This document shows positions 3,667 through 29,242 of a stretch of DNA of 41,624 nt, piece by piece (the first letter of the stretch is position 1; every line of letters starts with the position of its first letter). The notes beneath the pieces are model-generated. The model had not been told where the DNA came from. It saw only the letters and a program-made list of their open reading frames with translations, and did not search any database. The position numbers and the translations under genes are program-made. Location of the stretch: the NCBI GenBank assembly GCA_039933435.1, contig JBDTOB010000001.1, forward strand, positions 1 through 41,624. Reading direction: 5' to 3'. This DNA comes from Acidobacteriota bacterium. Lineage in GTDB: Bacteria; Acidobacteriota; Vicinamibacteria; Vicinamibacterales; 2-12-FULL-66-21.

Positions 3667-4007
3667 ACACTTGAGCGGCTCTAACCAGACCATTACCAAC
3701 ACAAACAGCGTAGCCGTAGCGCCGTCGCACGCGGTTCGGATACACTCAGGGGACATGCTGCGGCCGCTCCGATGCTGAGGCTGCTTCCGCCGATGGGTGG
3801 AAAGGCGTTCGTCATTCCCGCGCACGGCGGTAGGTGCGGTCTCGCAGGCTCCGCCAGCAGGACTTGCCGTGCTCCCGATCATCCGCACAAACAACTACGA
3901 TCGCCTGGGGCCACTGCTCCGGGCTTGCGCCACTCTTCGGAGTTCGGTTCGCGGCCGACCCATCCACGCTTAGAGGCGATGTCCGTCTTTCCAATCTCCT
4001 TACGACC

Positions 4008-4868
4008 ATGACCAGCACACCTGACAGGACGTTTAGACCGAGAGGAGGGCCCGATACGCTTGTCGACTCCAACGCCGACACCGCCGGCGTCGTCGGTACC
4101 GTGCGGGCGGTCTTTCGATACCGCGAGTTGCTCAAGCACCTGGTATTGAAGGATCTGAAGCTGAAGTATCGGGGCTCGTGGCTTGGCTTCATCTGGTCGC
4201 TGGTCAACCCCCTGATGATGCTCGTGGTCTACCTCGTGGCGTTCAAGTACATCCTCCGCGTGCGCGGGGAAGGATTCGTCTTCCTGCTGCTGCTGGCCAT
4301 TCTCGCCTGGACGTTCTTCTCGAACTCGCTGAGCATGTCCGCTGGCGGCATTGTCGACAACGGTGCGCTGATCAAGACCGTCGCCTTTCCGAGAGCGGTG
4401 CTGCCCATCTCCTCGGTACTTTTCAACCTCGCTCAATATCTGCTGACGGCTGCGGTGTTCATTCCGCTGATGCTCCTGCTGCACCGGACCCCCCCAGCCG
4501 CTCCGATGCTCTTGTTTCCCGTCTTCCTGTTGCTGCAACTGGCGTTCACGGTCGGTATCGGGCTGGCGCTGGCCACCGGCACGACGTTCTTTCGAGACAT
4601 CCGCCATTTCCTCGAGATCGCACTGTCGGTGATGTTCTGGACGACTCCAATCGTCTACGACTTCCGCACCATTCCCGCGGCTTGGCAATGGCTGGTGCTG
4701 CTGAGCCCGCTGTCGAGCTTTGTCCTGGCCTATCAGCAAATCTTTTATTACCGGGAGTGGCCTGGGGCGGCGGTCAGCGCCATCGCGTTCTCCTATGCCG
4801 TGATCGCGCTGTCCGCCGGGGTGGTGCTGTTCTCGCGGTACGACCGGGAGTTCTCGGAGCAGCTCTGA
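4008..4868 (+). CDS. wzm: ABC-2 type polysaccharide exporter permease (Wzm/TagG/KpsM-like)
   Basis: ATG at 4008 is the first start after a non-coding-looking leader. N-terminal amphipathic LKDLKLKYRGSWLGFIWSLVNPL is followed by about six hydrophobic segments. The stop lies 2 nt before the ATPase start. Confidence 0.85.
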   Translation: MTSTPDRTFRPRGGPDTLVDSNADTAGVVGTVRAVFRYRELLKHLVLKDLKLKYRGSWLGFIWSLVNPLMMLVVYLVAFKYILRVRGEGFVFLLLLAILAWTFFSNSLSMSAGGIVDNGALIKTVAFPRAVLPISSVLFNLAQYLLTAAVFIPLMLLLHRTPPAAPMLLFPVFLLLQLAFTVGIGLALATGTTFFRDIRHFLEIALSVMFWTTPIVYDFRTIPAAWQWLVLLSPLSSFVLAYQQIFYYREWPGAAVSAIAFSYAVIALSAGVVLFSRYDREFSEQL

Positions 4869-4870
4869 CC

Positions 4871-6334
4871 ATGGCCACGTTCATCGATATTCAGAACATC
4901 TCGAAGCGGTTTTTGCTGCGGCGGAACCGCTCGGGCGACCTGAAGTCGCGCTTCCTGGGAATCTTCTTCCGGGAGCGTCGGGAGATCGTCGACGATCTGT
5001 GGGCACTGAAAGATGTGTCGCTGGACGTCGGCCAGGGGGAGTCCATCGGACTCGTCGGCCGCAATGGCTCAGGGAAGAGCACGCTGCTGCGCGTCGCTGC
5101 CGGCATGCATCGACCGACGTCGGGAAAGGTCCTGACCCGGCCTGGCGTGCGAATAACGACGCTCATCGAGTTGGGGGTGGGATTTCACCCGGAGCTGAGC
5201 GGGCAGGAGAATATCTACCTGAATGCCGCCATTCATGGCCTCTCACGGCGGCACATCGACGAGATCTACCGGGACGTGGTCGATTACGCCGAACTGAGTG
5301 ACTTCATGGATGTGCCCCTGAAGAACTATTCCTCCGGTATGCAGATGCGGCTGGGATTCGCGGTGGCGGCCCATCTCGACCCGGACGTGCTTCTGCTTGA
5401 CGAGATCTTCGCCGTGGGGGACGAGGACTTCCAGAAACGGTGCCTGAAGACCGTGCATCGGTTCCTGAACGCCGGCAAGACGATCCTCTTCGTGTCGCAT
5501 GCGGCCGCCTCCGTTCGTTCGATCTGCCGGCGGGTCTGTCTGCTCGACCACGGCCACCTCCTGTTCGACGGCGACGTCGATGCGGGCCTCGGGGCCTATC
5601 ACCGGCTGCTGGAGACGACGGCGGCCCCGGCCGCGGCGCCAGAGCCGGTGCCGGGTCTCACCGCAGCGGCGGTCGAGGAGAGCGGCCTGCGCGACTCGGC
5701 CGAACTGGACCGAGCCTGGCACCGGATGGCAGCGGGCGGTTTGTGGGACGAGGTCGGCACCTTGTATTTCGACTTCCTGCGGGCACAGGGCCTGCAGCCC
5801 CATCACTACCTGCTCGATGTCGGATGCGGCAGTTTTCGCCTCGGCGTTCATCTCGTGCCCTATCTGCAGCCGGGACGTTACATCGGTCTCGAGAGCAACG
5901 AGGATCTCGTCCGGGCGGGAGCCGAACTGGAACTGCCCCGTGTCGGCATCGAGCCGCGGGGCGTGCGTGTGGTGATCAGCAATTGCTTCGATCTGGCAGG
6001 CCTGCCGCTGATGGACTTCGCCATCGCCCAGTCAGCCTTCACACAGATGTCGTTGAATGGCATCGCGCAGGGCGTGGCGATGGTAGTCCGTAAACTGGCG
6101 CCTGGCGGACGCTTCTTCGCGGCCTACTACGAGAATCCGGACCCGGCCGCCGGCGACGCCATCCTGCATCCCGGGGGGATCAAGAGCCATCCCGATGCCG
6201 ATCCGTACCACGCGACCTTTGCCGTCCTGGCCGGCGTCTGCGCCGGCGTCGGTGCCCGCGCGGAGCGGGTCACCGGCTGGCAGCATCCGCAGGGTCAGCA
6301 GATGATGGTGATCACGCGCCGCTTGCAAGACTGA
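4871..6334 (+). CDS. wzt: Polysaccharide ABC exporter ATP-binding protein (Wzt-like) with C-terminal class I SAM-methyltransferase domain
   Basis: ATG at 4871 (MATFIDIQNISKRF). ABC motifs: Walker A GRNGSGKST, signature YSSGMQMRLGFA, Walker B VLLLDE, H-loop FVSHA. A Pro/Ala linker (AAPAAAPEPVPG) follows. MTase motifs: LLDVGCGSFRLG, IGLESNEDLV, DFAIAQSAF, LAPGGRFF. Confidence 0.85.
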   Translation: MATFIDIQNISKRFLLRRNRSGDLKSRFLGIFFRERREIVDDLWALKDVSLDVGQGESIGLVGRNGSGKSTLLRVAAGMHRPTSGKVLTRPGVRITTLIELGVGFHPELSGQENIYLNAAIHGLSRRHIDEIYRDVVDYAELSDFMDVPLKNYSSGMQMRLGFAVAAHLDPDVLLLDEIFAVGDEDFQKRCLKTVHRFLNAGKTILFVSHAAASVRSICRRVCLLDHGHLLFDGDVDAGLGAYHRLLETTAAPAAAPEPVPGLTAAAVEESGLRDSAELDRAWHRMAAGGLWDEVGTLYFDFLRAQGLQPHHYLLDVGCGSFRLGVHLVPYLQPGRYIGLESNEDLVRAGAELELPRVGIEPRGVRVVISNCFDLAGLPLMDFAIAQSAFTQMSLNGIAQGVAMVVRKLAPGGRFFAAYYENPDPAAGDAILHPGGIKSHPDADPYHATFAVLAGVCAGVGARAERVTGWQHPQGQQMMVITRRLQD

Positions 6335-6492
6335 GCGGCGATTTTCCCGCCCGTTTTCATCCCACATTTTTTGCCGCCGCTGCACCATTTCGGCGCATCG
6401 ACGACGCAGATCCCCGTAAAGCCGCGCTTTTCCGGGGGTCCGGCTCTTGCAAGGTTTGGCACCGTCCCCGGCCGAAGATAGGAAAACAGTTG

Positions 6493-9333: not shown

Positions 9334-10382
9334 TGGACCGTACTCGCTGAAGTACTACCGATTCGGTGCGCCGGGTTGCGATACGCCCAGCGGATCGGCT
9401 TCGGGGCTTTGTTGTAGCGATGGATGTGGCGACGGATCTTACGAGCCAAGTCGGCGACGGAGGTAAAGATGCCGCGCGCCAAGAGGTCTCGCTCGATCTT
9501 CGAAAACCAGAGTTCAATCTGGTTGAGCCAGGACGAATAGGTCGGCGTGAAATGCAGGTGCACGTTGGGATGCGCGATCAAGAAGGTGCGAACGGCTTGC
9601 GTCTTATGGGTCGAGAGGTTGTCCGCAATCACGTGAATCTCGCGCCGCTTCGGCTGGCTGGCGACGATGTCCCCCAGAAAGTCGACAAAGGCGGCACTGG
9701 TGTGCCGCGGCACTGTCTGGCCGAGCACTTCACCCGATTGTGTGTTGAGGCCGGCGAACAACGAGAGCGTGCCATGCCGGTAGTATTCGAACCCGTGCCG
9801 TTCGGCCCGACCCGGCGACAACGGCAACACCGGATCGAGTCGGTCGAGCGCCTGAATGGCGGTTTTCTCATCCACGGCGAAGACCGCCGCGTGGTCGGGC
9901 GGATTGACGTACAGCCCGATCACGTCGGCCGCCTTGGCTTCGAAGTCCGGATCATCCGACTGCATGTAGCGTGCGAAGCGGTGAGGCTGGAGTCCCGCGC
10001 GCTGCCACGTCTTCGCGACGAGGTTGTGATGAATCCCCAGCACGCGTCCCAGCTTCCGGGCACTCCAATGCGTGCTGCCGTCAGGAGGCGGTTGCTGCGT
10101 CTTGGCCAACACGCGGGCTTCCATCTTCGGGGTCAGCACCGTCGGCGGCTGGCCGCGATAGCGCGCCTGCAGCCCGTCGAGCCCGTCCGCCACGAAGCGT
10201 CGTCGCCACCGATTGATGTAATCGCGGTAGCACGGCACCGTGGCCTCGATGGTCGCGTACGTATCCCCATTCGCCAGCATCAGCACCACACGAGCCCGTC
10301 GCGCGTCTTCCGCCCGAATCTTGAGACTTCGCCCGCGGCGCTCCAGTTCCGTTCGTTCATCGATCGTCAATGTCAGGGCCAT
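9330..10382 (-). CDS. IS630-family (Tc1/mariner-like) DDE transposase
   Basis: 350 aa. N-terminal HTH region (ARRARVVLMLANGDTYATIEA). Catalytic residues in FAVDEKTAIQAL, HVIADNLSTHK and SSWLNQIELWFSKIERD. The stop codon TAG is the reverse complement of CTA at 9330-9332, so the ORF reads through the IR into the target site. Confidence 0.9.
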   Translation of the reverse strand: MALTLTIDERTELERRGRSLKIRAEDARRARVVLMLANGDTYATIEATVPCYRDYINRWRRRFVADGLDGLQARYRGQPPTVLTPKMEARVLAKTQQPPPDGSTHWSARKLGRVLGIHHNLVAKTWQRAGLQPHRFARYMQSDDPDFEAKAADVIGLYVNPPDHAAVFAVDEKTAIQALDRLDPVLPLSPGRAERHGFEYYRHGTLSLFAGLNTQSGEVLGQTVPRHTSAAFVDFLGDIVASQPKRREIHVIADNLSTHKTQAVRTFLIAHPNVHLHFTPTYSSWLNQIELWFSKIERDLLARGIFTSVADLARKIRRHIHRYNKAPKPIRWAYRNPAHRIGSTSASTVH

Positions 10383-10632: not shown

Positions 10633-11358
10633 ATGTCCAAACTCACCCTTGGTGACGCCTATCGTCGATTCGTCAAGTCGCTCGAGCAGACTCATGAACA
10701 CGAGAAGGCGATGCAGGTCGCCATCGGCGGCGAGTTCGACGCCGTCGGCGTGATTGAGCGCGAAATCCTCATCCATTACGGCCTGCCCCCCGAGGGGTTC
10801 GTAATCGACGTCGGCTGCGGCTCTGGACGACTGAGCAAGCCGCTCTCGGCCTACCTCACCGGTCCGTATCTCGGGATTGACGTCGTCCCGGAACTGGTCG
10901 CGCACGCCAGGGCTCTGGCCAGCCGCCCCGACTGGACGTTCGCAGTCGCGGCCGGACTGGAGATTCCCGCCGCCGCCGACTCTGCGGACATGGTCTGCTT
11001 CTTCTCGGTCTTCACCCACCTGCTTCACGAACAGTCCTACGTCTATCTGCGTGAAGCGAAGCGCGTGCTCAAGCCGGGCGGCAGGGCGGTGTTCTCGTTT
11101 CTCGAGTTCGCACAACCCTCGCACTGGAACATTTTCGAAAGTACGGTCGCCGACCGCGGCGCCGAGCATCTCAATGTATTCATCGGCCGTGACGCCATCC
11201 AGGCGTGGGCGGCCCACCTGCAGCTGGAAGTGGTGTCGATCGTCGGCGGCGACCAGCCTCAGACTCCGCTGCGGGAACCGCTGACGATGGAGGACGGGAC
11301 CGTGCAGACGGGATCCGCAACCCTCGGGCAGTCGCTATGTGTGCTCGGGAAACCGTAG
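10633..11358 (+). CDS. Class I SAM-dependent methyltransferase
   Basis: Motif I VIDVGCGSGRLSKPL, post-I LGIDVVPELV, DMVCFFSVFTHL, LKPGGRAVFSF. Motif spacing matches the Wzt C-terminal domain. Confidence 0.85.
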   Translation: MSKLTLGDAYRRFVKSLEQTHEHEKAMQVAIGGEFDAVGVIEREILIHYGLPPEGFVIDVGCGSGRLSKPLSAYLTGPYLGIDVVPELVAHARALASRPDWTFAVAAGLEIPAAADSADMVCFFSVFTHLLHEQSYVYLREAKRVLKPGGRAVFSFLEFAQPSHWNIFESTVADRGAEHLNVFIGRDAIQAWAAHLQLEVVSIVGGDQPQTPLREPLTMEDGTVQTGSATLGQSLCVLGKP

Positions 11359-11417: not shown

Positions 11418-14400
11418 ATGAAGACTGAGGCTTTTCAGCAGGACATCTATCAACGCTACAGCGTGCTCACGCGTCTGCTGGTCGCGGCCTTCCCGCCGCC
11501 GGCGGATGGCACTGTCGTCGACATCCTCGATATCGGCGCCGGGCCAGAGCGTCTGGCCGAACGGTTCCTGCCGCCCTATTTCCACATCACGCGGGCTGAC
11601 GTCGACACCGCGGGAGACACGGCGATCGTCCGCCTCGACCCCGGTCAACCGCTGCCCTTCGAACGCGACGCTTTTCCGGTAGTGATCGCGCTGGAGGTGC
11701 TCGAGCACGTCCCTGCCGCCGGACGGACCGCGCTCATCCACGAGTGTGCCCGGGTGGCTTCGAGCGTCGTCGTCCTCAGCTGTCCGGTGGCCTCACCGCT
11801 GACCAGCCGCGCCGAGGAAATCTTCCAGGCGCTCGCGACCCGCATCAGCGGCACCACACTGGCGTTTCTCGACGAACACAAGGCCGAGGGCCTCCCCGAC
11901 GCGGAGGCGATCCGCGCGGCACTCGAACAGCGGATGCCGCAGGTGTTCGACATCGCCAACTCCTCGTTGCCGGAGTGGCTGATTTACAACGCCATCGACC
12001 TGGCCTACGCCTGTGACTTCGGTGACGGCGAGGAGAAAGGCCGGTTCAACAGCGGCGTCAACGCCGCCGCGCCGCTGAGCGGGCGCGGGCCGCATTACCG
12101 GCGGTTTTTCGCCGGATGCGCCGACCAGTCGATGGGCGAGCGGCTGTCCGGCGCGCTGCGCGCGATTCCCTCGGACGGCGATCCCTTGGCCACCGCGGTC
12201 ACCATCGCCGAATCGCTGACCCTGTTTCGGGAGGACCTGCTCCGCAAGCATGCCGAGGGTCTGCGGCTCGCCGTCAAGGCCAAGGACCGGCACATCGACG
12301 CGCTGGACCAGGTGATCGTTCAGCTTCAGCGCGAAGGCCGGCACGATGCGAACGGGGATATCGGAGGGGACGTCGGTGGGGTTGCCGAACCCGCCGTTCC
12401 GGTGCCTCAGGCTCCCGATCGCACGTCCGTGCCGGCCAAAATGACGACGAAGCTGCGGGTGGCCAGGTCGCGCCTGCGAACGCTTCGGCTGGGCATCAGG
12501 CTGTCGAGCGACATCAAGGCGCTCGTCGCCCGCAGCCGCCTGTTCGACGCGGGGTACTACACCAACCGCTACCCGGACGTGGCCGCCAGCGGCATCGATC
12601 CGCTGGTGCACTATCTCGTGGTCGGGGGCGCGGAAGGACGCGGTCCCAACGCGATTTTCGACGACGTTTATTACGCGAGCCGCTCTCCGGACCTTCAGCC
12701 GTCTGGTCTGAACCCGCTCGTCCACTACCTGACCATCGGAGCGGCCGAGGGACGCGACCCGCATGCGCTTTTCGACTCGGCGTATTACGTCGCCTCCCAT
12801 CCGGAAGTGACGGCATCCGGGCTCACCCCGCTGGCGCACTATGTGATGCACGGCGCGGATCTTCGCTGGGATCCGAATCCGCTGTTCTGGACCGGCTTCT
12901 ATTTCGACACCTATCCGGATGTCGTCGGCTTGGGGATGAATCCGCTCGCGCATTACCTGCAGACCGGCGCTGGTGAGGGGCGGCAGCCAAGCCCCCTGTT
13001 CGACGTGCCGTTCTATCGGGCTCGAAATCCGGGGGTCGCGGCACAGGCCGATCCGTTACAGCACTACCTGGCGGCAGGCGGCGCCGAAGAACGCGACCCA
13101 CATCCGCTCTTTGACACGGCCTACTACCTCGCCCGCCATCCGGAAGTGAGGCAATCGGGTCACACCCCGCTGGCGCACTATGTGCTGCACGGCGCGCGGC
13201 TGCGATGGGACCCGACGCCGCTTTTCTGGACAGGGTTCTACGCCGACGCCTACCCGGACGTCTCTTCCTCAGGGATGAATCCGCTCGCGCACTACGTCCT
13301 CTCCGGGGCCGTGGAGGGACGTAATCCCAATCCCTTGTTCGAGGCCGCCTTTTATCGGAGCCGCAACGCCGACGTGGTTCCCCCGCACGTCGATCCGCTG
13401 CTCCATTACCTGGCGGAGGGTGCGGCGCTTGGGCGCGATCCACATCCGTTGTTCTCGACGCGCTACTACCTGTCGGCCAATCCTGACGTCGAGGCCGCGA
13501 ATCTCAACCCACTGGTTCACTATCTGCTGCACGGCGCAGGCGAAGGACGCCGCCCGAATCCGCTGTTCGATGCCGCCTATTACGGCCGCGGGCTCGACCT
13601 GCCGCCAGGTGCAAATCCGCTCGTCCACTATCTCGGCGAGGGGGCGAGGTCGGGACGGAACCCGCACCCGCTGTTCGACGCGGCTTTTTACCTGGCCAGC
13701 CACCCGGAGGCTGCGGTGGACCCGTCGGGAGCGCTGGCGCATTACCTCTCGACTGGCGCGGAGACGAAGTGGGATCCGCATCCGCTGTTTTCCAGCGAGT
13801 ACTACCTGTCGCGGAACCCGGACGTCGCCGCGGCGGGCGTCAACCCGCTAGTCCATTACGTACTGCACGGCGCCGCCGAGGGCCGCAGCCCGCACCCGTA
13901 TTTCGACGGGGCGTACTACCTGGCCTGCAATCCCGACGTCGCCCGCGACGGCGTCAACCCGTTGGTGCACTACCTGCAGACCGGCGCCGAGGAAGGCCGG
14001 AAGCCCTCCGCGCTGTTTGACACCCGCCACTACCTCGCCGAAAACCCGGACGTCGCCGCGGCGTCCGTCAATCCTCTCGCGCACTATGTCCTGCACGGAC
14101 GAGCCGAGGGGCGGACGCCGAACCGGCTCTTCGATCCGGCGTACTATCTCTCGACGAGCCGCGCCGGTGAGCCGGCCGCCTCGGACCCTCTCCGGCATTT
14201 CATCGATCATGGCGCCGCGGAAGGGCGCAACCCCTCTGCCGCTTTCGACACCTCCTTTTATCTTCGCCAGAATCCCGACGTCGCGGCCGCCGGCCTGAAT
14301 GCACTGGCGCATTACCTGGACCACGGCGAGGAGGAAGGGCGCCGGGCGGCGCCGTCGGCGGCCGGCGTGGCGGCCGAGCTTTCCGGGCGCTTCGTGCCGC

Positions 14401-17400
14401 CAGTGGGGCTGCTGCCCTGGTTCAACCCGCTGACCCTGGGGCTGGACCCCGGACTGGACCAGACACCGGCCCTCAATGTCCTGGTGCCCGGCCTCGCCAT
14501 GCAGCACATGTCAGGCGGCCCCAACACCGCGCTGCACATTGCCTATCGCCTCGCCGCCCTCGGCGTCCGCGTGCGGCTGATCTCCACAGACGCGCCGATG
14601 TCGGACCCCGAGCTGCTCTGGGGGCATCTCCTGCAGCTCATCGGCACTGACCGGCGGCTGCCCAACATCGAGTTCGCCGACGCGCACGACCGCAATCAGG
14701 TACTGGCCATCGGCCGCAACGATCTCTTCTTCGCGACCGCCTGGTGGACGGCGCAGATGGCCAAGTTCGCCATCGAGTTCACCCGCCACAAGCAGTTCGT
14801 GTACCTGGTCCAGGATTACGAGCCGCTCTTGCACGCCGCGTCGACTTCGCAGGCTCTCGCCGAGGAAACCTACTCGCTCGATTTCATCCCGATCGTCAAT
14901 TCACGCCTGCTCTTCGATTTCCTGACGGTCAACGGCATCGGACGCTTCGCCGAGCAGGAGTTCGCGGACACGGCTCTCGTGTTCGAGCCGGCAGTCGACC
15001 GTTCGCGCTTTTTCGTGGAGCCGGCCTCACCGGACCGGCCGCGCCGGTTGCTCTTCTACGCGCGTCCGACCACGGCGCTGCGCAATCTCTTCGAGTTGGG
15101 CGCGGCGGCGCTCATGGACGCTGCCGCGCGCGGGGTGTTCGACGCCGGGCCGTGGGAGCTGCTGGCCATGGGCGAGCCGATAGCGCCGGTGGCGGTTGGA
15201 CACGGCCTGGTGTTGACGCCGGCGCCGTGGCTGGATTTCGAGGGGTACGCGGCGCAGATGCGCCAGGCGGATGTCCTGCTCTCGCTGATGCTGTCACCGC
15301 ACCCCAGCTATCCACCGCTGGAGATGGCGTCCTGCGGCGGGGTCACCGTCACCACCAGTTTCGGATCCAAGACCGCCGCGCGGCTGGCTGTCATCTCCCC
15401 GAACATCCTCGGGGCGCCCCCGACTGTCGAAGGTGTCGCCGACGCCCTCATCGAGGCGATCGTCCGCAGCCGCACGGCGCGCGCGGATCCGCGCGCCGGA
15501 GCGCTCGACCTGCCGTCGACCTGGGACGAGAGCCTCGCCCCGATTCTGCCGGGCCTGCTGGCGGCGCTGCTCGAAGCCGCCGGGGCGCCCCGCGCCGGCC
15601 GCGTCTGGAACGCGCCGGCGCTGGGAACCAGTGACATCGCGTGTGGCTTCCAAACGTGGCCCGTCACCGCCTACGAACACTTTCGCATCGATCGCATGAG
15701 CCGCCGGCGGAGCGCCGCGCCGTCGGTTCGACCGGATCCGGGGCTGCTCTCGCTGATCACGACGGCCTGGAACACCGAGCCGCGGTTTCTGGAATATCTC
15801 GCCGCCAGCGTGTTTCAGCAGGACGGCGATCCGCCGTTCGAGTGGGTGATTATCGACAACGGCAGCGATCGTGACGACACCCGGCGGTGCCTGAGCGAGA
15901 TCGCGTCCCACCCGGCGGTCCGGTTGCACCGCATCGAGAGCAACGCCGGGATCGCCGGCGGCATGCGGCTGGCCCTGGAACGCGCGAGCGGCCGCTACGT
16001 GCTTCCAGTCGATTCCGACGACTATCTCTACCCCGACTGTTTGCGCCTGGTGGCGGCGGGCTTGGTCTCGGCTGGATTCCCGACGCTGCTCTACACAGAC
16101 GAGGACAAGCTCAGCGACGACGGCTGGCGCGATCCCTACTTCAAGCCCGACTGGGATCCCGTCCTCTTCGCCAATTCGTGTTACATCGCGCACCTCTGCG
16201 CGATCGATCGTGCGACGGCGCTGCACCTCGACTGCTACGCCGATGCCATCGCGGATGGCAGCCATGACTGGGACACGTTCACCCGCTTCACCGTCGCGGG
16301 CCACGCCCCTGTCCATCTGCCGGAAGTCCTCTACGGCTGGCGGATGCATGCCGGATCGACCGCTGCCAACATCGAGGCCAAGTCCTACATCGTCGCCTCG
16401 CAGCGGGGAGTGTTGACGAGGTTCCTGGACTCGCGGCGGGAGGCGGCGCGGTTCACCATCGAGCGCAGCCCGCTGTTTTCCGGCACCCCGGACTGGTGGA
16501 TCCGCAGGCTGCCGGTGGAGCCTCGCCCGATCACGACCGTAATCCTCCAGAAAACAGAGGAGACGGCGGCGGCCGGTGTCGAGATCGACGCCAGGATTCC
16601 ACACGATGTGAGAACGGTCACGGGTGAGGCGGCGCTCGACGAACTGCGAGCCATCGCGCTGGACTGCGCGGCGCGAGCGGGCCTGGTGCATCTGCTCGCC
16701 GATGATGTCGAGAGCGACAACCCGGAGTGGCCGTGGGAAGCCATGGGCATGATCGAGCTGTTCGAGGATACGGTCATGGTGGGCGGACGGATCCACGACG
16801 GCCGGCGGCTACTTTCGAGCGGCTTGCTGTTCGGGTTCGGGTCCGGCTGCGATGCCCCGGACCGTGGCCGCGACCTCAGGGATCCAGGGTATTTCGCGCA
16901 GGCCTTCAAGCCGCATTCGGTCAGCGCGGTGCCCGCCGATCATGCGATCGTCGAGCCCGGCTTCCTGGCTGCCGCGCTCTTCGAACTTCGCGATCTGCCG
17001 ATCTCGATCGCGGCTCTCGGTCCGTGGCTTGGCGCCGCGGCCCGGCGCGCCGGCAGCAGGGTTGCCTACTCGCCCTTCATCAGCGGCCGGGTTCCACGGG
17101 GACGTACGGATGGGTGGGACGAGCGCGAACTCTCCCTGTTTCGATCCGTCAATCATGACCTCATGCCCGAACGGCGGCTGCTCTCTCCGCACTTGGGGCT
17201 CACCCGCGAGACGGCGTTTCTGCCCGTCACGGAAGAACAGCGACGCGACGAGGAGGCGAACGCCGGCGCCTTGCGTCCGGAGTACCGGGAGGGGCTGGCC
17301 GGAACGCTGTGGGCGCGGCGTCGGACCTATGCGCTACCGGCGCGCGTGCCGTCTTTGTCGATCCTGACCACCCTCTACAGCGGAACCGACGCCCCGCTCT

Positions 17401-18836
17401 TCGCTGAAACCGCGGCGTCGCTGCTCAGGCAGACCCTGCCGTTCGGGGAGTGGATTGTGCTCGCCCATGGTCCGGTGTCCGCCGCGCTGGCGGCGGCGCT
17501 CGAGCGTCTGGAAGGGACACCCCGCGTCCGGGTCCTCAGGCTCCCGGAGAATCTCGGCATCATGGGAGGAATGCGCACCTGCCTGCTGGCGGCGGCGGGT
17601 GACTATGTGATTCCAGTCGATGGCGACGACCTGCTAATGGACGATGCGCTGCAGATCGTGGCGAGCGTGGCGGGCAACAGCGATTCCGCGCCGATGCTGA
17701 TCTATTCCGACGAAGACGTCCTGGACAACGGCGGCCCCCGATCTCCTTACATCCGTCCGGACTTCGATCCCGTGCTCAACTTCGATTCGTCCTACATCTG
17801 GCATCTCTGCGCCATCCGCCGCGATGCGGCCCTCGCCGAGGGGCTGTATTCGGATGCGGCGATGGAGTTCTGCCATGACTGGGACAGCGTGACCCGGATT
17901 GCAGCCATCGAACCGCCGTCTCACGTCCCCGAGGTGCTGTATCACTGGCGCCATCACGAGGCCTCGCATACCAATCGCGCGACCCAGCACGTGGGATCGA
18001 TCGATTCCACCCGGCGGCTGCTCGAGCGGCGGGCGTCACAGCTGCCCCATCCATCCCTGTTCGAGGTCGCCGAGTTCCCCGTATTTCGCGGTGCCCGGGA
18101 ATGGTATCTGCGCCGCAAGCCGATCGAGCCGCCGCCGATCGCGGTGATCGTGACCGCCGCACGAGAGCCGGGCCCGGAGCCGATGCACGCGTGGCTGGAG
18201 AGGAGTGCATACCCGTTTGCGGCTGTCTTGTCTGCGGCGAACGCCGCCGAGGAAGCGGCCATCCTGCGGGAGCTCGCCTCAGCCGGCGGGGTCCAATACG
18301 TCGCGGTGGTCGCCGCGGAGATCGAGCCTGGCGGCGACGAGTGGATTTGGGAAGCCATCCGTCTCTTCGAGTGCCATCCCGAAGTGGCGATGTGCGGAGG
18401 GCGCCTGGTCGATCGCACACAGACGGTGGTGCGCAGCTGTGGAGTCCTGGACGAACGCGGCGCACTGATTGAGCCGTTCGCCGGTCTCGCGGCGCTCGAC
18501 CCCGGCCCGTTCGCCCTGGCGCTCAAGCCGCACCTCGTGGCCGCGGTGCCGGAGCCGTTGTATGTGGTCGCAACAGCCAATCTGCCGCTGCCGCTCCCGG
18601 ACGGCCGCCACCCGGATCGGCGCGCCCTGCGGCTGGCGGCAGACGCCTGGTCGAGTGGACGCACGGTGGCTTATACTCCACTCATAGAGGCCCGGATCGG
18701 CGACGCCGCCCGGCTGGCGCCGTCGGGGTCGAGCACGCCGGGCGACCGGATGGCCCTGGCGAGACTGTCGGAGGCGCTTGCGGGCCGGCGTCTGGGCGCC
18801 AGTGGCCTGGTGAGCGTGCAACGGCGGTATCGCTGA
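11418..18836 (+). CDS. Giant (2,472 aa) multidomain glycan assembly protein: SAM-methyltransferase, helical linker, 16 tandem 38-aa repeats, GT-B glycosyltransferase region, two GT2 A-B cassettes
   Basis: One uninterrupted ORF. Domains by aa position:
- ~30-150: MTase (VDILDIGAGPERL, VVIALEVLEHVP)
- 376-977: repeats
- ~1018-1350: GT-B region (NVLVPGLAMQHMSGGPNT.., QDYEPLL, PPLEMASCGGVTVTT)
- ~1443-1960: GT2 cassette (ITTAWNTEPRF, VIIDNGSD, LPVDSDDYL, LYTDEDK..FKPDWDP)
- ~1978-2472: GT2 cassette (ILTTLYSG, IPVDGDDLL, IYSDEDV..IRPDFDP). Confidence 0.85.
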   Translation: MKTEAFQQDIYQRYSVLTRLLVAAFPPPADGTVVDILDIGAGPERLAERFLPPYFHITRADVDTAGDTAIVRLDPGQPLPFERDAFPVVIALEVLEHVPAAGRTALIHECARVASSVVVLSCPVASPLTSRAEEIFQALATRISGTTLAFLDEHKAEGLPDAEAIRAALEQRMPQVFDIANSSLPEWLIYNAIDLAYACDFGDGEEKGRFNSGVNAAAPLSGRGPHYRRFFAGCADQSMGERLSGALRAIPSDGDPLATAVTIAESLTLFREDLLRKHAEGLRLAVKAKDRHIDALDQVIVQLQREGRHDANGDIGGDVGGVAEPAVPVPQAPDRTSVPAKMTTKLRVARSRLRTLRLGIRLSSDIKALVARSRLFDAGYYTNRYPDVAASGIDPLVHYLVVGGAEGRGPNAIFDDVYYASRSPDLQPSGLNPLVHYLTIGAAEGRDPHALFDSAYYVASHPEVTASGLTPLAHYVMHGADLRWDPNPLFWTGFYFDTYPDVVGLGMNPLAHYLQTGAGEGRQPSPLFDVPFYRARNPGVAAQADPLQHYLAAGGAEERDPHPLFDTAYYLARHPEVRQSGHTPLAHYVLHGARLRWDPTPLFWTGFYADAYPDVSSSGMNPLAHYVLSGAVEGRNPNPLFEAAFYRSRNADVVPPHVDPLLHYLAEGAALGRDPHPLFSTRYYLSANPDVEAANLNPLVHYLLHGAGEGRRPNPLFDAAYYGRGLDLPPGANPLVHYLGEGARSGRNPHPLFDAAFYLASHPEAAVDPSGALAHYLSTGAETKWDPHPLFSSEYYLSRNPDVAAAGVNPLVHYVLHGAAEGRSPHPYFDGAYYLACNPDVARDGVNPLVHYLQTGAEEGRKPSALFDTRHYLAENPDVAAASVNPLAHYVLHGRAEGRTPNRLFDPAYYLSTSRAGEPAASDPLRHFIDHGAAEGRNPSAAFDTSFYLRQNPDVAAAGLNALAHYLDHGEEEGRRAAPSAAGVAAELSGRFVPPVGLLPWFNPLTLGLDPGLDQTPALNVLVPGLAMQHMSGGPNTALHIAYRLAALGVRVRLISTDAPMSDPELLWGHLLQLIGTDRRLPNIEFADAHDRNQVLAIGRNDLFFATAWWTAQMAKFAIEFTRHKQFVYLVQDYEPLLHAASTSQALAEETYSLDFIPIVNSRLLFDFLTVNGIGRFAEQEFADTALVFEPAVDRSRFFVEPASPDRPRRLLFYARPTTALRNLFELGAAALMDAAARGVFDAGPWELLAMGEPIAPVAVGHGLVLTPAPWLDFEGYAAQMRQADVLLSLMLSPHPSYPPLEMASCGGVTVTTSFGSKTAARLAVISPNILGAPPTVEGVADALIEAIVRSRTARADPRAGALDLPSTWDESLAPILPGLLAALLEAAGAPRAGRVWNAPALGTSDIACGFQTWPVTAYEHFRIDRMSRRRSAAPSVRPDPGLLSLITTAWNTEPRFLEYLAASVFQQDGDPPFEWVIIDNGSDRDDTRRCLSEIASHPAVRLHRIESNAGIAGGMRLALERASGRYVLPVDSDDYLYPDCLRLVAAGLVSAGFPTLLYTDEDKLSDDGWRDPYFKPDWDPVLFANSCYIAHLCAIDRATALHLDCYADAIADGSHDWDTFTRFTVAGHAPVHLPEVLYGWRMHAGSTAANIEAKSYIVASQRGVLTRFLDSRREAARFTIERSPLFSGTPDWWIRRLPVEPRPITTVILQKTEETAAAGVEIDARIPHDVRTVTGEAALDELRAIALDCAARAGLVHLLADDVESDNPEWPWEAMGMIELFEDTVMVGGRIHDGRRLLSSGLLFGFGSGCDAPDRGRDLRDPGYFAQAFKPHSVSAVPADHAIVEPGFLAAALFELRDLPISIAALGPWLGAAARRAGSRVAYSPFISGRVPRGRTDGWDERELSLFRSVNHDLMPERRLLSPHLGLTRETAFLPVTEEQRRDEEANAGALRPEYREGLAGTLWARRRTYALPARVPSLSILTTLYSGTDAPLFAETAASLLRQTLPFGEWIVLAHGPVSAALAAALERLEGTPRVRVLRLPENLGIMGGMRTCLLAAAGDYVIPVDGDDLLMDDALQIVASVAGNSDSAPMLIYSDEDVLDNGGPRSPYIRPDFDPVLNFDSSYIWHLCAIRRDAALAEGLYSDAAMEFCHDWDSVTRIAAIEPPSHVPEVLYHWRHHEASHTNRATQHVGSIDSTRRLLERRASQLPHPSLFEVAEFPVFRGAREWYLRRKPIEPPPIAVIVTAAREPGPEPMHAWLERSAYPFAAVLSAANAAEEAAILRELASAGGVQYVAVVAAEIEPGGDEWIWEAIRLFECHPEVAMCGGRLVDRTQTVVRSCGVLDERGALIEPFAGLAALDPGPFALALKPHLVAAVPEPLYVVATANLPLPLPDGRHPDRRALRLAADAWSSGRTVAYTPLIEARIGDAARLAPSGSSTPGDRMALARLSEALAGRRLGASGLVSVQRRYR
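12543..14346 (+). repeat. Array of 16 tandem coding repeats (111-114 nt, 37-38 aa) inside the giant gene
   Basis: Consensus: F-D-x-x-(Y/F)-Y-x-x-x-N-P-D-V-A-A-A-G-x-N-P-L-(V/A)-H-Y-(L/V)-x-x-G-A-x-E-G-R-x-P-(H/N)-P-L. Units were counted by hand from FDAGYYTNRYPDV.. to FDTSFYLRQNPDV..HGEEEGRR. Confidence 0.95.
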
Positions 18837-19222: not shown

Positions 19223-20622
19223 TTAGAGTCCCGGGACGTGGTGGAAATTCGGTAGGGCTCCTTCGCTAGACAAGCGAAGCGGCCATCGCGCATCTTTCCG
19301 TGAGTTCTCTCTGGCGGGGGACGAAACACACGGAGGTGTTGAGACGATGGCCAAACCAAGGATGGATCTGTCGGCGTTCGTTGGCAAGCTCCTCGAGGAG
19401 CAAGACGGGGATGTGCTGCGGGAGGGGATTCGGGTCCTGTCGCAAGCCCTGATGGAAAGCGAGGTGGCCGGGTTGATTGGCGCCGAGCGTCACGAACGGA
19501 CCGGCGACCGGACGGCGTACCGCAACGGGAGCCGGACACGGACGTGGGACACGCGCGTGGGCACGATCGAGTTGGCGATCCCGAAAGTCCGCCCGGGCAC
19601 GTATTTTCCTTCGCTGCTTCAGCCGCGACGCCGCGCGGAACACGCGTTGCTGGCGGTCGTGCAGGAAGCCTACGTGCATGGCGTCTCGACGCGGAAGGTC
19701 GACGATCTCGTGAAAGCGCTCGGTCTCGACGGCATCTCGAAGTCTGATGTCTCACGGATTTGCGGCGACCTCGATCCGATCGTCGCGGCCTTCCGGACCC
19801 GGGCGCTGACGGGCGAGCATCGGTATCTGTGGGTCGACGCGACCTACCACAAGGTTTGCGTCGATGGCCGGGTCATCAGCCAGGCCACCGTCGTGGCGAT
19901 CGGCATCACCAGCGAGGGCGACCGGCAGGTGCTCGGCATCGACGTCGGGCCGTCCGAGGACCGCGCCTTCTGGACGGCGTTCCTGCGCAGCCTGGTGAAG
20001 CGCGCCTGAAGGGTGTCCGCCTGGTGATCTCCGACGCCCATGAGGGACTGAAGGCCGCCATCAGCACCGTGCTGTCAGGGACGACATGGCAGCGCTGTCG
20101 CGTGCATTTCATGCGGAACCTCCTGGCCACGGTCCCCCACGGGGCCCGCGAGGCCATCGTCCGCACCATCTTCGCGCAGCCCGATCATGCCTCGCCGCTT
20201 GTGCAGCTCCGCAAGGTCGCAGACGGGCTCCGCAGCCGATTTGCGCGCGCCGCGGCACTCCTCGAAGAGGCCGCGGAAGACATTCTGGCTTGTCGTCATT
20301 TGCCGTTGGAGCATCAGCGCCAATTACACAGTACGAATCCACTGGAGCGTCTCAACAAGGAAATCAAGCGCCGATCCAACGTCATCGGCATCTTTCCGAA
20401 CTCGGCGGCGGTGATCCGGCTGGTCGGGGCGATCTTGCTCGAGCAGGACGATCAATGGGCCGTCGCTGAACGACGGTACTTCAGCGCGGAGTCGATGAAG
20501 CAGCTTACGACGCCGACGCTGTCCACGACGGCGCAGGAGATTCTAGCGGCGACTGCGTAGGCGAGCCGAACTCACGAATGCGTCTGCCGACTTTCCACCA
20601 CTTGACGGGACACTACCCCCCC
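19219..20622 (+). mobile_element. IS256-family insertion sequence (~1.4 kb)
   Basis: Imperfect terminal inverted repeats. Left (19224-19258): TAGAGTCCCGGGACGTGGTGGAAATTCGGTAGGGC. Reverse complement of 20581-20615: TAGTGTCCCGTCAAGTGGTGGAAAGTCGGCAGACG. 26 of the first 32 positions are identical by hand alignment. Outer boundaries are uncertain by a few nt. The element encloses an IS256-type transposase. Confidence 0.8.
19347..20560 (+). pseudogene. IS256-family transposase, disrupted by a 1-nt frameshift near 20003-20006
   Basis: ORF 19347..20009 ends ..FWTAFLRSLVKRA*. The protein continues in the -1 frame as LKGVRLVISDAHEGLKAAI..WQRCRVHFMRN..TNPLERLNKEIKRR. Intact family members read ..LVKRGLKGV.. 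The sequence cgcgcctgaagg, versus expected cgcggcctgaagg, implies loss of one G. DDE residues lie in WVDATY, VISDAH and NPLERLN. Confidence 0.8.
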
Positions 20623-24341: not shown

Positions 24342-25253
24342 TCAGGCTTCACGGCCTCGCTCGGTGCGCCACCACTCAATCGTTTCCGCGAGCCCACGGT
24401 CGAGCGACACCGCCGGGTGCCAGCCGACTTCGTCGCGGATCCTGGTAACGTCCGCGGTCAGCCGCGGCGGATCGTGCGGCGGCGGCGGGCGGGCGCCCAG
24501 CCGGATCAACGATTCGGCCTGCAGCAACTGTCCGATGCGGCGCACCACGTCGGCCACAGCGGCCGGGCTGCCGGAGGCGATGTTGACCGGCCCTTCCACA
24601 TCGCTTGCAAGGATGGCGGCGAAGGCGTCGGCGACGTCCTGGACATGCAGGAAATCCCGCACCTGGGTGCCCGCCGAGCACTGCGCCTCGCGCCCCGCCA
24701 GCAGCGCCAGAATCACCGACGGCACCAGACGGTCCGGATGCTCCAAGGGGCCGTAGAGATGGAAGACCCGACCCCACGACGCCGACAGACGGCCGCGCGC
24801 AAATCCCTCGAGCACCGCGTGAAAAGCGTGCTTGGCGCTGCCGTAGAGCGTCCCCGGGCGAAGCCGGGTCGTCCGCTCATCGCAATCATCCGCTGCCACC
24901 GCATACTCGGCGCACGAGCCGGCGCCGACGAAGCGCTCACCGCCCTGGTCGGCAAACGCCCGCAGCAGCTCGATGCTCACCTGCACCCAGGAGAGGTTCT
25001 GCGGTGACGTCCAGAACTCCCCCGGCGTCGCGCACCACGCCAGGTGCAGGAGATGCGTCGGCCGGACGGTCTCGATCAGCCGGGCGCCAGCTCCCGGCAC
25101 CAGCAGATCGGCCTGGTGCCACTCGGCCACGCCGGCCGCCGCCGGCCGCGCCCGGGAGCTGACCGCATGCACCTCGAACGGCAGGGCGCCGAGCGGCCGC
25201 AGGCAATGGCGTCCGATGAAGCCGCTCGCGCCCGTCAGCAGCACCCGCGTCAT
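24342..25253 (-). CDS. NAD(P)-dependent extended SDR (NDP-sugar epimerase/reductase); probable NDP-4-ketohexose reductase
   Basis: ATG overlaps the upstream stop (ATGA). Motifs: VLLTGASGFIGRH and catalytic YGSAK. The operon position after the epimerase suggests the reductase role. Confidence 0.8.
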   Translation of the reverse strand: MTRVLLTGASGFIGRHCLRPLGALPFEVHAVSSRARPAAAGVAEWHQADLLVPGAGARLIETVRPTHLLHLAWCATPGEFWTSPQNLSWVQVSIELLRAFADQGGERFVGAGSCAEYAVAADDCDERTTRLRPGTLYGSAKHAFHAVLEGFARGRLSASWGRVFHLYGPLEHPDRLVPSVILALLAGREAQCSAGTQVRDFLHVQDVADAFAAILASDVEGPVNIASGSPAAVADVVRRIGQLLQAESLIRLGARPPPPHDPPRLTADVTRIRDEVGWHPAVSLDRGLAETIEWWRTERGREA

Positions 25254-25780: not shown

Positions 25781-25788
25781 GCCCCGGC

Positions 25789-28004: not shown

Positions 28005-28012
28005 CGGCTCCG

Positions 28013-29241: not shown

Positions 29242-29242
29242 A

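What the first reader, a model, noticed from the sequence alone, without database searches (positions are those of the whole stretch)
12543..14346. Sixteen tandem 38-aa 'NPL-x-HY...EGR-x-P' repeats with an internal 3-unit block duplication
Seen: 16 head-to-tail units with consensus FDxx(Y/F)YxxxNPDVAAAGxNPL(V/A)HY(L/V)xxGAxEGRxP(H/N)PL.

Units 3-5 (12771-13109) and 6-8 (13110-13451) form a duplicated three-unit block. Each block contains the variant pair ..LRWDP(N/T)PL FWTGFY... The two blocks share identical DNA runs, such as caccccgctggcgcactatgtg and gggatgaatccgctcgcgca.

From memory only: one to a few copies of a similar motif occur in other polysaccharide-associated transferases. I cannot name a characterised family or function, and an expansion to 16 copies looks exceptional.

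Inference: the array could be an extended solenoid or rod acting as a spacer or ruler, a glycan- or membrane-binding array, or an oligomerisation scaffold. Recombination between units could change spacer length.
Basis: partly seen in the sequence, partly recalled or inferred. Interest (0 to 1): 0.75.

Follow-up and report, generated by a model that had tools for sequence, protein, structure and literature searches.

The report
Unannotated 38-residue helical repeat array
A giant bacterial sugar-polymer-building enzyme carries sixteen copies of a 38-residue helical repeat that is very common in polysaccharide enzymes yet missing from domain and structure databases; it is most likely a rigid arm whose length can change, not a catalytic part.

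Summary
Nucleotides 12543-14357 encode 16 head-to-tail units of 38 aa (one of 37, one of 36) inside a 2472-aa ORF (11418-18836). The ORF reads: methyltransferase-like domain, short coiled coil, Pro-rich linker, basic amphipathic helix, array, WsaF-like GT, then two GT2 modules. It lies in a gene cluster for ABC-transporter-dependent (Wzm/Wzt) polysaccharide assembly.

The 3-unit block duplication is real and old (72.5% nt identity). One ortholog shares it; another has the block only once (13 units).

Sixteen copies is the far upper tail, not unique. A single-unit profile finds 26,153 protein clusters, with arrays up to 24 units. Most arrays sit at the N-terminus of glycosyltransferases.

The repeat has no Pfam or NCBIfam model and no PDB relative by sequence or Foldseek. 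AlphaFold2 predicts a regular unit of three short helices with high confidence (5-unit model: pLDDT 96.5, pTM 0.90). Most conserved polar positions look like helix caps, which points to a conserved framework with variable surfaces.

Best reading: a non-catalytic, acidic solenoid arm that positions the catalytic modules and changes length by unit or block duplication. A strict chain-length ruler and glycan binding remain open. The model coordinates could not be read, so rod geometry was not measured.

The parts
11418..18836 (+). 2472-aa multidomain ORF that contains the array
   Evidence: GC3 is 0.82 in this frame. Full-length orthologs P0237 (2484 aa) and P0238 (2469 aa) exist. No transmembrane segment: the highest Kyte-Doolittle 19-residue window is 1.57.
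11418..12182 (+). N-terminal SAM-methyltransferase-like domain (aa 1-255), a putative chain-capping enzyme
   Evidence: Methyltransf_11 matches aa 37-114 with E 5.6e-4 and 20.9 bits, just under the 21.2-bit cut-off. The same domain in ortholog P0237 scores 27.4 bits, above the cut-off.
12201..12317 (+). Short coiled-coil-like helix (about aa 262-300) with one KDxHIxxLD motif
   Evidence: Read from the sequence. A crude coiled-coil heuristic marks 38 residues. The same motif is repeated many times in A. argentinense P0239 and its A. brasilense counterpart L003.
12318..12422 (+). Gly/Pro/Ala-rich linker (aa 301-335), probably flexible
   Evidence: Composition read from the sequence. This stretch was not modelled.
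12423..12542 (+). Arg-rich amphipathic helix that caps the array (aa 336-375)
   Evidence: Net charge of aa 341-375 is +10, pI 12. Hydrophobic moment is 0.5-0.59. It is helical in the AF2 model. In the family, the 35 aa before the first unit average +3.8, against -0.8 for background windows.
12543..14357 (+). Array of 16 units of 38 aa (aa 376-980), acidic (net -27, pI 5.6)
12771..13109 (+). Block A: units 3-5
13110..13451 (+). Block B: units 6-8, an old duplicate of block A (72.5% nt identity)
   Evidence: The duplication is shared by P0238. The block is single in L001/P0310.
14469..15464 (+). WsaF-like GT-B glycosyltransferase domain (aa 1018-1349)
   Evidence: Pfam WsaF_N (E 4e-23) and WsaF_C (E 4e-41). 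PDB 2x0d WsaF matches with E 1.6e-34.
15738..16367 (+). First GT2 module (from aa 1441)
   Evidence: Pfam Glycos_transf_2, best stretch aa 1445-1546. PDB GT2 hits cover aa 1443-1649.
17382..17834 (+). Second GT2 module (about aa 1989-2139)
   Evidence: Pfam Glycos_transf_2, E 7.6e-12, on aa 1895-2472. NCBIfam hit at aa 1978-2078.
3834..4868 (+). ABC-2 permease (Wzm-like) of the same cluster
   Evidence: PF01061, E 2e-17.
4871..6334 (+). ABC ATPase (Wzt-like) with a C-terminal methyltransferase-like extension
   Evidence: PF00005, E 2e-21. The C-terminal 298 aa give weak methyltransferase hits (E 0.002-0.006) and no Wzt_C hit.
10633..11358 (+). Stand-alone SAM methyltransferase immediately upstream
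   Evidence: Methyltransf_11, E 3e-18.

Best explanation
The array is a non-catalytic alpha-helical solenoid built from a previously unannotated 38-residue unit. Each unit has three short helices and an extended EGRxPxPL connector.

The conserved positions form the framework: an aromatic and Leu core, N/D-Pro helix caps and Gly C-caps. The exposed positions vary.

The array is acidic and follows a strongly basic amphipathic helix. I infer that this helix tethers one end to the membrane or to a partner, and that the array projects as a stiff arm carrying the glycosyltransferase modules.

In this protein the arm lies between the N-terminal methyltransferase-like (probable chain-capping) domain with its short coiled coil and the three polymerising GT modules. 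It would therefore set the geometry of a single-polypeptide polymerisation-termination machine in an ABC-transporter-dependent pathway. It may also offer a surface for oligomerisation or docking, as TPR domains do in capsule polymerases.

Its length evolves in steps of whole units or 3-unit blocks.

Shown: the repeat, its predicted secondary structure and confidence, its distribution, the domain order, the charge pattern and the copy-number changes.
Inferred: rigidity as a rod, tethering by the basic helix, and the spacing or docking role.
For: Structure:
- For aa 335-1010, AF2 gives mean pLDDT 84.9 and pTM 0.80. Units 1-9 and 11-14 are above 90.
- For 5 units, pLDDT is 96.5 and pTM 0.90, with the same H-H-H-bridge pattern in each unit.

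Family-wide regularity:
- The 38-aa spacing holds in 1837 of about 2300 successive unit pairs in 236 proteins.
- In a logo of 2651 units, the conserved positions are F1, Y6, L21, H23, Y/F24, G28, P35, P37, L38, D2, N10-P11, N19-P20 and G32. Positions 3-4, 8-9, 14-16, 22, 26-27, 29-30 and 34 are variable.

Domain order and context:
- Methyltransferase, coiled coil, array, then three GT modules.
- Wzm/Wzt genes lie in the cluster.
- Four of five unrelated array proteins have ABC2_membrane plus ABC_tran genes within 10 kb.
- In the eleven other internal-array giants scanned, the N-terminal region is a methyltransferase (6), a sulfotransferase (2) or a pyruvyl transferase (1); two had no Pfam hit. 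In 52 of 60 internal-array proteins a coiled-coil-like stretch precedes the array.

Charge:
- The pre-array segment is basic (family mean +3.8, ours +10). Arrays are acidic (-1.6 per unit; 97% have pI below 7).

Optional, variable module:
- The same tri-GT core (41-76% identity) carries 0 to 16 units.
- Length changes by blocks.

Precedent:
- TPR domains of about 400 aa at the N- or C-terminus of ABC-dependent TagF-like capsule polymerases mediate oligomerisation and are not needed for catalysis (PMC5974469).
- Coiled-coil spacers separate terminator from polymerase in WbdD and WbbB (PMC11231755).
Against: - The model coordinates could not be read, so a straight rod, a superhelix and a closed shape are not distinguished.
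- Unit 10 and units 15-16 have low confidence.
- A roughly 35-aa Pro/Gly-rich linker lies between the coiled coil and the array. This argues against a rigid connection to the methyltransferase.
- In 155 of 236 proteins nothing but the short basic helix precedes the array, so spacing two domains cannot be the general role.
- Unit number is unrelated to coiled-coil length (rho 0.09) and to pre-array length (rho about 0).
- The repeat also occurs at the C-terminus of secreted RTX/M10 proteins and in a phage tail-like protein. A membrane-tethered cytoplasmic stalk makes no sense there.
- There is no experimental evidence for any member.
Confidence: 0.45

Rival explanations
1. The array is a dedicated chain-length ruler. 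It adds to, or in this protein largely replaces, the coiled coil. The number of 38-aa units would then set the distance between the capping methyltransferase and the polymerase, and so the modal length of the polysaccharide, quantised in units.
For: - The array lies between the putative terminator and the polymerase.
- This protein and its closest orthologs have only about 38-44 coiled-coil-like residues but 13-16 units. Relatives with 2-9 units have pre-array regions about 40-170 aa longer.
- Three close relatives all have 16 units, one of them through a different duplication history.
- The period is strictly conserved.
- The WbdD/WbbB precedent applies.
Against: - Across 35 orthologs with a methyltransferase, unit number and pre-array length are uncorrelated. 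Total extension length simply grows with the number of units.
- Most arrays have no terminator domain upstream.
- The same core works with 0 units in 50 of 120 homologs.
- A flexible linker lies between the coiled coil and the array.
- If the basic helix between the coiled coil and the array is the membrane anchor, the array does not lie between the membrane and the terminator as the WbdD coiled coil does.
- The Wzt lacks the cap-recognising CBM.
Confidence: 0.2
2. The array is a glycan-binding (or lipid-linked-glycan-binding) repeat. It would hold the nascent polymer on cytoplasmic transferases, giving processivity, and would anchor secreted proteins or phage tails to surface polysaccharide.
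For: - It is the one reading that covers every context seen: many unrelated transferase families (GT2, GT4, RgpF, GT61, WbsX, pyruvyl-, sulfo- and methyltransferases), secreted M10/RTX proteins and a phage minor-tail-like protein.
- The units are rich in aromatic residues and His (Y 7.3%, H 5.8%, F 4.0%).
Against: - The conserved aromatic and polar positions are those expected of a hydrophobic core and helix caps, not an obvious common binding site.
- The glycans made by the partner enzymes must differ widely, while the conserved positions are the same everywhere.
- The array is acidic, which does not favour binding anionic lipid-linked intermediates.
- No similarity to any known CBM was found.
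Confidence: 0.2
3. The array is a selectively near-neutral, expansion-prone repeat with no specific role in this protein.
For: Copy number ranges from 0 to 16 on the same catalytic core. P0237 shows very recent block amplification.
Against: - The array of P0238 (about 60% core identity) keeps all 16 units in one-to-one register: 70% identity on the diagonal against 49% off it.
- The frame is intact over 1.8 kb.
- The framework residues are conserved at 87-100% across 2651 units.
- The family has 26,153 clusters.
Confidence: 0.05

Closest known systems
WbdD (E. coli O9a / K. pneumoniae O3) and WbbB (K. pneumoniae O12): terminator, coiled-coil molecular ruler and polymerase in ABC-transporter-dependent O-antigen assembly
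   Same: - A Wzm/Wzt cluster.
- An N-terminal modifying-enzyme domain, a long non-catalytic helical region, then C-terminal polymerising GT modules in one polypeptide, as in WbbB.
- Relatives of this protein carry long coiled coils upstream of the array.
   Different: - The long non-catalytic element here is a 38-aa three-helix tandem repeat, not a coiled coil. Only about 38 residues look coiled-coil-like.
- The repeat mostly occurs without any terminator domain.
- The Wzt has no recognisable Wzt_C CBM.
- No functional data exist.
TPR domains of TagF-like group 2 capsule polymerases such as Cps1B (PMC5974469)
   Same: - A large helical-repeat domain (about 400-600 aa) at the N- or C-terminus of polymerases in ABC-transporter-dependent pathways.
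- It is non-catalytic, with a proposed oligomerisation or docking role.
   Different: - No TPR, Sel1 or other repeat model matches the array at E up to 1.
- The unit is 38 aa with three helices, not a 34-aa helix pair.
- Foldseek finds no PDB match at all.
WsaF / WsaE of the Geobacillus stearothermophilus S-layer glycan pathway (WsaF structure: PDB 2x0d)
   Same: - The GT domain right after the array is WsaF-like (E 1.6e-34).
- From my own knowledge, not tested here: that pathway also combines rhamnosyltransferase modules with a methyltransferase that caps the chain.
   Different: The solved WsaF chain is 413 aa and matched only through its GT domain; no PDB chain matched the array. WsaE was not examined here.
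Octatricopeptide repeats (OPR), the 38-aa helical repeats of organellar RNA-binding proteins
   Same: A 38-residue period (PMC12691811, listed).
   Different: From my own knowledge, OPRs are two-helix hairpins in eukaryotic organellar RNA-binding proteins. Here the unit has three helices, the consensus is different, and the context is bacterial glycan enzymes. Homology was not tested directly.

Membership tests
WbdD/WbbB-type terminator / ruler / polymerase system | Cluster encodes the Wzm/Wzt ABC transporter of the ABC-transporter-dependent pathway | tested here: met
   ABC2_membrane at 3834-4865 and ABC_tran within 4178-6331.
WbdD/WbbB-type terminator / ruler / polymerase system | A chain-terminating modifying enzyme at the far end of the spacer | tested here: inconclusive
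   A methyltransferase-like domain at aa 37-114 scores 20.9 bits against a 21.2-bit cut-off. Ortholog P0237 scores 27.4 bits. Capping activity is unknown.
WbdD/WbbB-type terminator / ruler / polymerase system | An extended coiled coil between terminator and polymerase | tested here: not met
   A crude heuristic marks only about 38 coiled-coil-like residues (aa ~262-300). The 605-aa interval is the three-helix repeat instead.
WbdD/WbbB-type terminator / ruler / polymerase system | Polymerising GT modules in the same protein or recruited to it | tested here: met
   A WsaF-like domain plus two GT2 modules lie C-terminal to the array.
WbdD/WbbB-type terminator / ruler / polymerase system | Wzt carries a C-terminal carbohydrate-binding module that recognises the capped chain | tested here: not met
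   The C-terminal 298 aa of the Wzt-like protein give only weak methyltransferase hits and no Wzt_C hit at E up to 1.
WbdD/WbbB-type terminator / ruler / polymerase system | Spacer length determines the modal glycan chain length | not testable with these tools
   This needs in vivo array-length variants and LPS gels.
TPR / Sel1-like helical repeats | Match to TPR or Sel1 profile models | tested here: not met
   No Pfam or NCBIfam family matches aa 376-980 at E up to 1.
TPR / Sel1-like helical repeats | A two-helix (helix-turn-helix) unit of 34-44 aa with structural similarity to solved TPR/SLR proteins | tested here: not met
   The unit has three helices. Foldseek against the PDB gives 0 matches at E up to 10, for both the 676-aa and the 189-aa model.
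WsaF-family rhamnosyltransferase (applies to the domain after the array) | WsaF_N and WsaF_C domains above the Pfam cut-offs, and sequence similarity to the solved WsaF | tested here: met
   82.6 and 140.5 bits against a 27-bit cut-off. PDB 2x0d matches with E 1.6e-34. Sugar specificity was not tested.
Octatricopeptide repeat (OPR) | 38-residue period | tested here: met
   this array; family.
Octatricopeptide repeat (OPR) | Sequence homology to OPR proteins or an RNA-binding hairpin unit | not tested
   No OPR profile was at hand. The three-helix unit and the bacterial GT context argue against membership.

The most novel reading that the evidence does not exclude
The 38-residue unit defines a helical-repeat fold with no experimental representative. 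In ABC-transporter-dependent glycan assembly it acts as a second, unit-quantised molecular ruler or stalk. The number of units, changed by 1- to 3-unit duplications and deletions, would set how far the polymerase sits from the membrane anchor or terminator, and so the polysaccharide chain length.
Probability: 0.15. Interest if true: 0.8.

Novelty: new variant of a known kind. Interest (0 to 1): 0.55.

Why it matters
Chain-length control and the spatial organisation of cytoplasmic polysaccharide assembly are understood for only a few enterobacterial prototypes, which use coiled coils.

This repeat is present in about 26,000 protein clusters across many phyla, usually fused to O-antigen, EPS or capsule transferases. 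Yet it has no domain model, no solved structure and, as far as the searchable literature shows, no description.

Defining it would improve annotation of thousands of 'hypothetical' N-terminal regions. It would give structural biology a confident target with no PDB analogue. It would also offer a directly testable handle, unit number, on how these machines are built and possibly on how polymer length is set.

Tried and rejected
- **Tandem Repeats Finder on the DNA:** nothing over the array, because the units are only 62% identical.
- **Pfam and NCBIfam on the whole protein:** no model covers aa 376-980.
- **PDB by sequence:** the array and the unit profile gave only noise.
- **Foldseek against the PDB:** two confident models gave 0 matches at E up to 10.
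- **Foldseek against BFVD:** only weak hits to giant-virus proteins (E 0.01-0.5), not followed up.
- **Literature searches:** searches for motif strings, '38-residue repeat', and helical or N-terminal repeats in glycosyltransferases found nothing on this repeat.
- **Source organism:** megablast of the gene against plasmids found no match. An exact look-up of the protein found it not on record. The source organism stays unidentified.
- **Longer arrays in terminator-bearing proteins?** Not significant (Mann-Whitney p = 0.35).
- **Array length compensating for coiled-coil or pre-array length?** No correlation. The coiled-coil heuristic is crude; for example it marks only 39 residues of the visibly long coiled coil of L003.
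- **TPR repeats replacing the array in six orthologous cores?** Rejected for the one protein checked. In P0271 the TPRs cover only aa 57-133, next to one unit and an extra GT2.
- **Identical 20-22-nt runs as evidence of recent gene conversion?** Rejected, because they are expected at this identity.
- **Alignment-based scan of viral contigs:** failed, as no stretch was conserved enough.
- **Model coordinates:** not available to scripts, so no rise per repeat could be computed.
Full report
**1. The observation**

The window holds one 2472-aa ORF on the + strand, 11418-18836. Splitting its product at the recurring F-D/W-x-x-Y/F-Y motif gives 16 contiguous units. They start at aa 376, 414, 452, 490, 528, 565, 603, 641, 679, 717, 753, 791, 829, 867, 905 and 943, which is nt 12543-14357. 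Fourteen units are 38 aa; unit 5 is 37 and unit 10 is 36.

- F1, Y6, L21, H23 and G28 are invariant. Y24 and P35 are nearly invariant.
- A profile of the units matches exactly these 16 places in one reading frame and nothing else in the six-frame translation of the 41.6-kb window.
- In a leave-one-out test each unit scores 38-76 bits against the other 15. The best of 2000 shuffles scores 15 bits or less.
- Units are on average 48% (aa) and 62% (nt) identical, so a DNA tandem-repeat finder sees nothing.

The proposed 3-unit block duplication is real. Unit identities are 76% (3 v 6), 71% (4 v 7) and 58% (5 v 8). The blocks 12771-13109 and 13110-13451 are 72.5% identical in DNA. The two quoted identical DNA runs each occur exactly twice, 339 nt apart. 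Runs of that length are expected at this identity and lie on the conserved PLAHY motif, so they do not show recent conversion.

**2. The protein and its neighbourhood**

The domain order is as follows.

| Region (aa) | Feature | Evidence |
|---|---|---|
| 1-255 | Methyltransferase-like domain; Methyltransf_11 at 20.9 bits, just under the 21.2-bit cut-off (27.4 bits in ortholog P0237) | |
| ~262-300 | Short coiled-coil-like helix | |
| 301-335 | Gly/Pro-rich linker | |
| 336-375 | Arg-rich amphipathic helix; net +10 over aa 341-375; hydrophobic moment 0.5-0.59 | |
| 376-980 | The 16-unit array | |
| 1018-1349 | WsaF-like GT-B domain; PDB 2x0d, E 1.6e-34 | |
| from 1441, and ~1989-2139 | Two GT2 modules | |

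The protein has no transmembrane segment.

The surrounding genes are those of ABC-transporter-dependent glycan assembly:
- a PF00953 initiating transferase;
- a Wzm-like permease and a Wzt-like ATPase;
- several further GT2 and GT4 proteins;
- NDP-sugar genes, including a C-methyltransferase.

**3. How common the repeat is**

Their arrays are fused to GT2, GT4, RgpF, GT61, WbsX, pyruvyl-transferase and methyltransferase domains. None carries a precomputed Pfam domain over the repeat.

The single-unit profile was searched against 1.84 billion representatives. It found 26,153 clusters at E up to 1e-3, 16,937 at E up to 1e-10 and 4,590 at E up to 1e-30. The longest arrays have 20-24 units.

Sixteen units is therefore in roughly the top 0.1% but is not unique. 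Among the best 150 clusters, 23 (my recount) to 32 (the tool's count) have 16 or more units.

Further family features:
- The 38-residue spacing holds in 1837 of about 2300 successive unit pairs.
- Of 236 multi-copy proteins, the array is N-terminal in 155, internal in 57, and at the C-terminal end of the sequence as recovered in 27 (three counted in two classes); some of these proteins may be cut by contig ends.
- Four of five unrelated members examined lie within 10 kb of ABC2_membrane and ABC_tran genes. An enterobacterial plasmid locus resembles a transporter-dependent capsule cluster.
- The repeat is not confined to cytoplasmic transferases. Two M10/RTX metallopeptidases on a Pseudoroseomonas plasmid end in 6 units each. 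An RTX-like protein and a phage minor-tail-like protein on IMG/VR contigs carry 3 and 2 units.

**4. Structure**

AF2 with 98 homologs models aa 335-1010 with mean pLDDT 84.9 and pTM 0.80. Units 1-9 and 11-14 are above 90. The degenerate unit 10 and units 15-16 are poorly predicted. A 5-unit fragment reaches pLDDT 96.5 and pTM 0.90.

Every unit shows the same pattern: helices at about positions 3-9, 11-16 and 20-28, then an extended EGRxPxPL segment bridged to F1 of the next unit.

Foldseek against the PDB returns no match at E up to 10 for either model. PDB sequence and profile searches give only noise. I could not read the coordinates, so the overall shape (rod, superhelix or ring) and the length per unit remain unmeasured.

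In a logo of 2651 units, the conserved positions fall into three groups:
- hydrophobic or aromatic residues: F1, Y6, L7, V13, L21, Y24, L25, L38;
- N/D-Pro pairs placed where the three helices begin: D2, N10-P11, N19-P20;
- Gly or Pro in turns: G17, G28, G32, P35, P37.

I read this as a conserved framework with variable exposed positions, as in TPR, ankyrin or HEAT scaffolds. That reading is inference.

**5. Clues to function**

*Domain order.* Of the eleven other internal-array giants I scanned, the N-terminal region is a methyltransferase in six (P0121, P0126, P0144, P0133, P0142, P0132), a pyruvyl transferase in one (P0122) and a sulfotransferase in two (P0125, P0129). P0136 and P0158 gave no Pfam hit in that region, and P0124 none outside its GT modules. 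The arrays are followed by GT modules in the four scanned full-length. In 52 of 60 internal-array proteins a coiled-coil-like stretch precedes the array. This is the order of the WbdD/WbbB paradigm. There, the terminating enzyme sits at the far end of a coiled-coil ruler, and the membrane-binding helix and polymerase sit at the near end (PMC11231755).

*Charge.* The 35 residues before the first unit average +3.8 net charge, against -0.8 for control windows. The arrays themselves are acidic: -1.6 per unit, and 97% have pI below 7. A basic amphipathic tether followed by an acidic arm that would not lie on an anionic membrane is a plausible stalk.

*Optional and variable.* A search with only the tri-GT core (aa 981-2472) gives an unbiased sample. 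The best 120 homologs (41-76% identity) are distributed as follows.

| Units | 0 | 1 | 2 | 3 | 4 | 5 | 6 | 7 | 8 | 9 | 10 | 13 | 15 | 16 |
|---|---|---|---|---|---|---|---|---|---|---|---|---|---|---|
| Proteins | 50 | 6 | 12 | 5 | 9 | 3 | 16 | 4 | 2 | 5 | 1 | 2 | 2 | 3 |

*Closest relatives*:
- P0238 (about 60% core identity) keeps all 16 units in one-to-one register (70% identity on the diagonal, 49% off it). It shares the 3-unit duplication.
- L001/P0310 (74% identity in the WsaF-like domain) has 13 units, with that block present once.
- P0237 (66%) also has 16 units but reached that number through different, nearly identical and therefore recent block copies.

The recurrence of 16 hints weakly at a preferred length.

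*Against a simple ruler.* Unit number does not differ significantly between internal and N-terminal arrays (p = 0.35). It does not correlate with coiled-coil length (rho 0.09) or with pre-array length among 35 methyltransferase-bearing orthologs (rho about 0). The total extension simply grows with the number of units.

**6. Interpretation**

The best-supported reading (0.45) is a non-catalytic solenoid arm. It is tethered at one end by the basic helix and carries the GT modules at the other. It organises the polymerisation-termination machine and may provide an oligomerisation or docking surface.

The nearest functional precedents are two:
- TPR domains of about 400 aa at either end of TagF-like capsule polymerases. 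These mediate oligomerisation and are dispensable for catalysis (PMC5974469).
- The coiled-coil spacers of WbdD and WbbB.

The rivals are:
- a strict unit-quantised chain-length ruler (0.2);
- a glycan-binding repeat (0.2), which best explains the secreted RTX and phage contexts but lacks a conserved candidate binding site;
- a near-neutral expansion (0.05).

**7. Known or new**

The array fails the membership tests for TPR/Sel1 (no profile match, three helices, no structural match). In this protein it also fails for a coiled-coil ruler. The catalytic domain after it is a member of the WsaF family.

I found no domain model, solved structure or paper describing the repeat. This is absence within the libraries at hand, not proof.

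I rate it a new variant of a known kind: a helical-repeat accessory domain of glycan-assembly enzymes. It is of moderate to good interest for its abundance, the missing annotation and the testable link to machine geometry.

Noticed in passing
window 4871-6334 (+): The Wzt-like ABC ATPase has a C-terminal extension of about 250 aa. It gives weak SAM-methyltransferase hits (E 0.002-0.006), not the Wzt_C carbohydrate-binding module known from the O9a and O12 systems.
   Followed up: partly
window 9330-10382 (-) and 19347-20009 (+): A DDE_3 transposase and a truncated Mutator-family transposase (only profile positions 20-221 of 379) bracket the stand-alone methyltransferase gene and the giant ORF. 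This suggests a mobile or rearranged segment inside the polysaccharide cluster.
   Followed up: no
window 31492-35496 (+): A 1334-aa protein with four GT2 matches, a second multi-module transferase in the cluster. It carries no 38-aa repeat.
   Followed up: no
window 24342-29526 (-): NDP-sugar pathway genes: nucleotidyltransferase, 4,6-dehydratase-like, 3,5-epimerase, reductase-like, and a C-methyltransferase (PF08484/PF08421). They imply a C-methylated deoxysugar in the product.
   Followed up: no
window 6490-9333 (+) and 37807-40530 (+): Two large, probably surface or secreted proteins lie within the cluster: a 947-aa protein with Ig-like domain hits and a 907-aa FG-GAP repeat protein.
   Followed up: no
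L020 2720-4630 and 4879-6801 (Pseudoroseomonas cervicalis plasmid NZ_CP115852.1): Two adjacent M10-family (serralysin/RTX-type) metallopeptidases each end in 6 clear copies of the same 38-aa repeat. The repeat is therefore also used in presumably secreted proteins.
   Followed up: partly
L021 4344-5336 and L022 4353-5387 (IMG/VR contigs): An RTX-like protein with 3 C-terminal units, and a phage minor-tail-like protein with 2 degenerate units. Whether these contigs are truly viral was not checked.
   Followed up: partly
P0237 (ortholog, 2484 aa), units 6-12: Nearly identical neighbouring blocks (1-5 differences per 38 aa) show very recent block amplification. The total is again 16 units, but with a different internal history from the window's array.
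   Followed up: partly
Foldseek BFVD hits (Hyperionvirus, Harvfovirus, Indivirus proteins): Weak structural matches (E 0.01-0.5, 20-27% identity over 100-200 columns) to giant-virus proteins annotated as DUF5672, FkbM methyltransferase and AlgX/AlgJ-like. These proteins may carry a few copies of the repeat.
   Followed up: no
L013 4777-5265 (-), 9404-9943 (+), 17525-17632 (-); L014 185-850 and 10082-11653: Some clusters carry arrays at two or three separate places (different strands in L013; two different genes in L014). This would fit array-mediated assembly of separate enzymes. The window itself has only one array.
   Followed up: no
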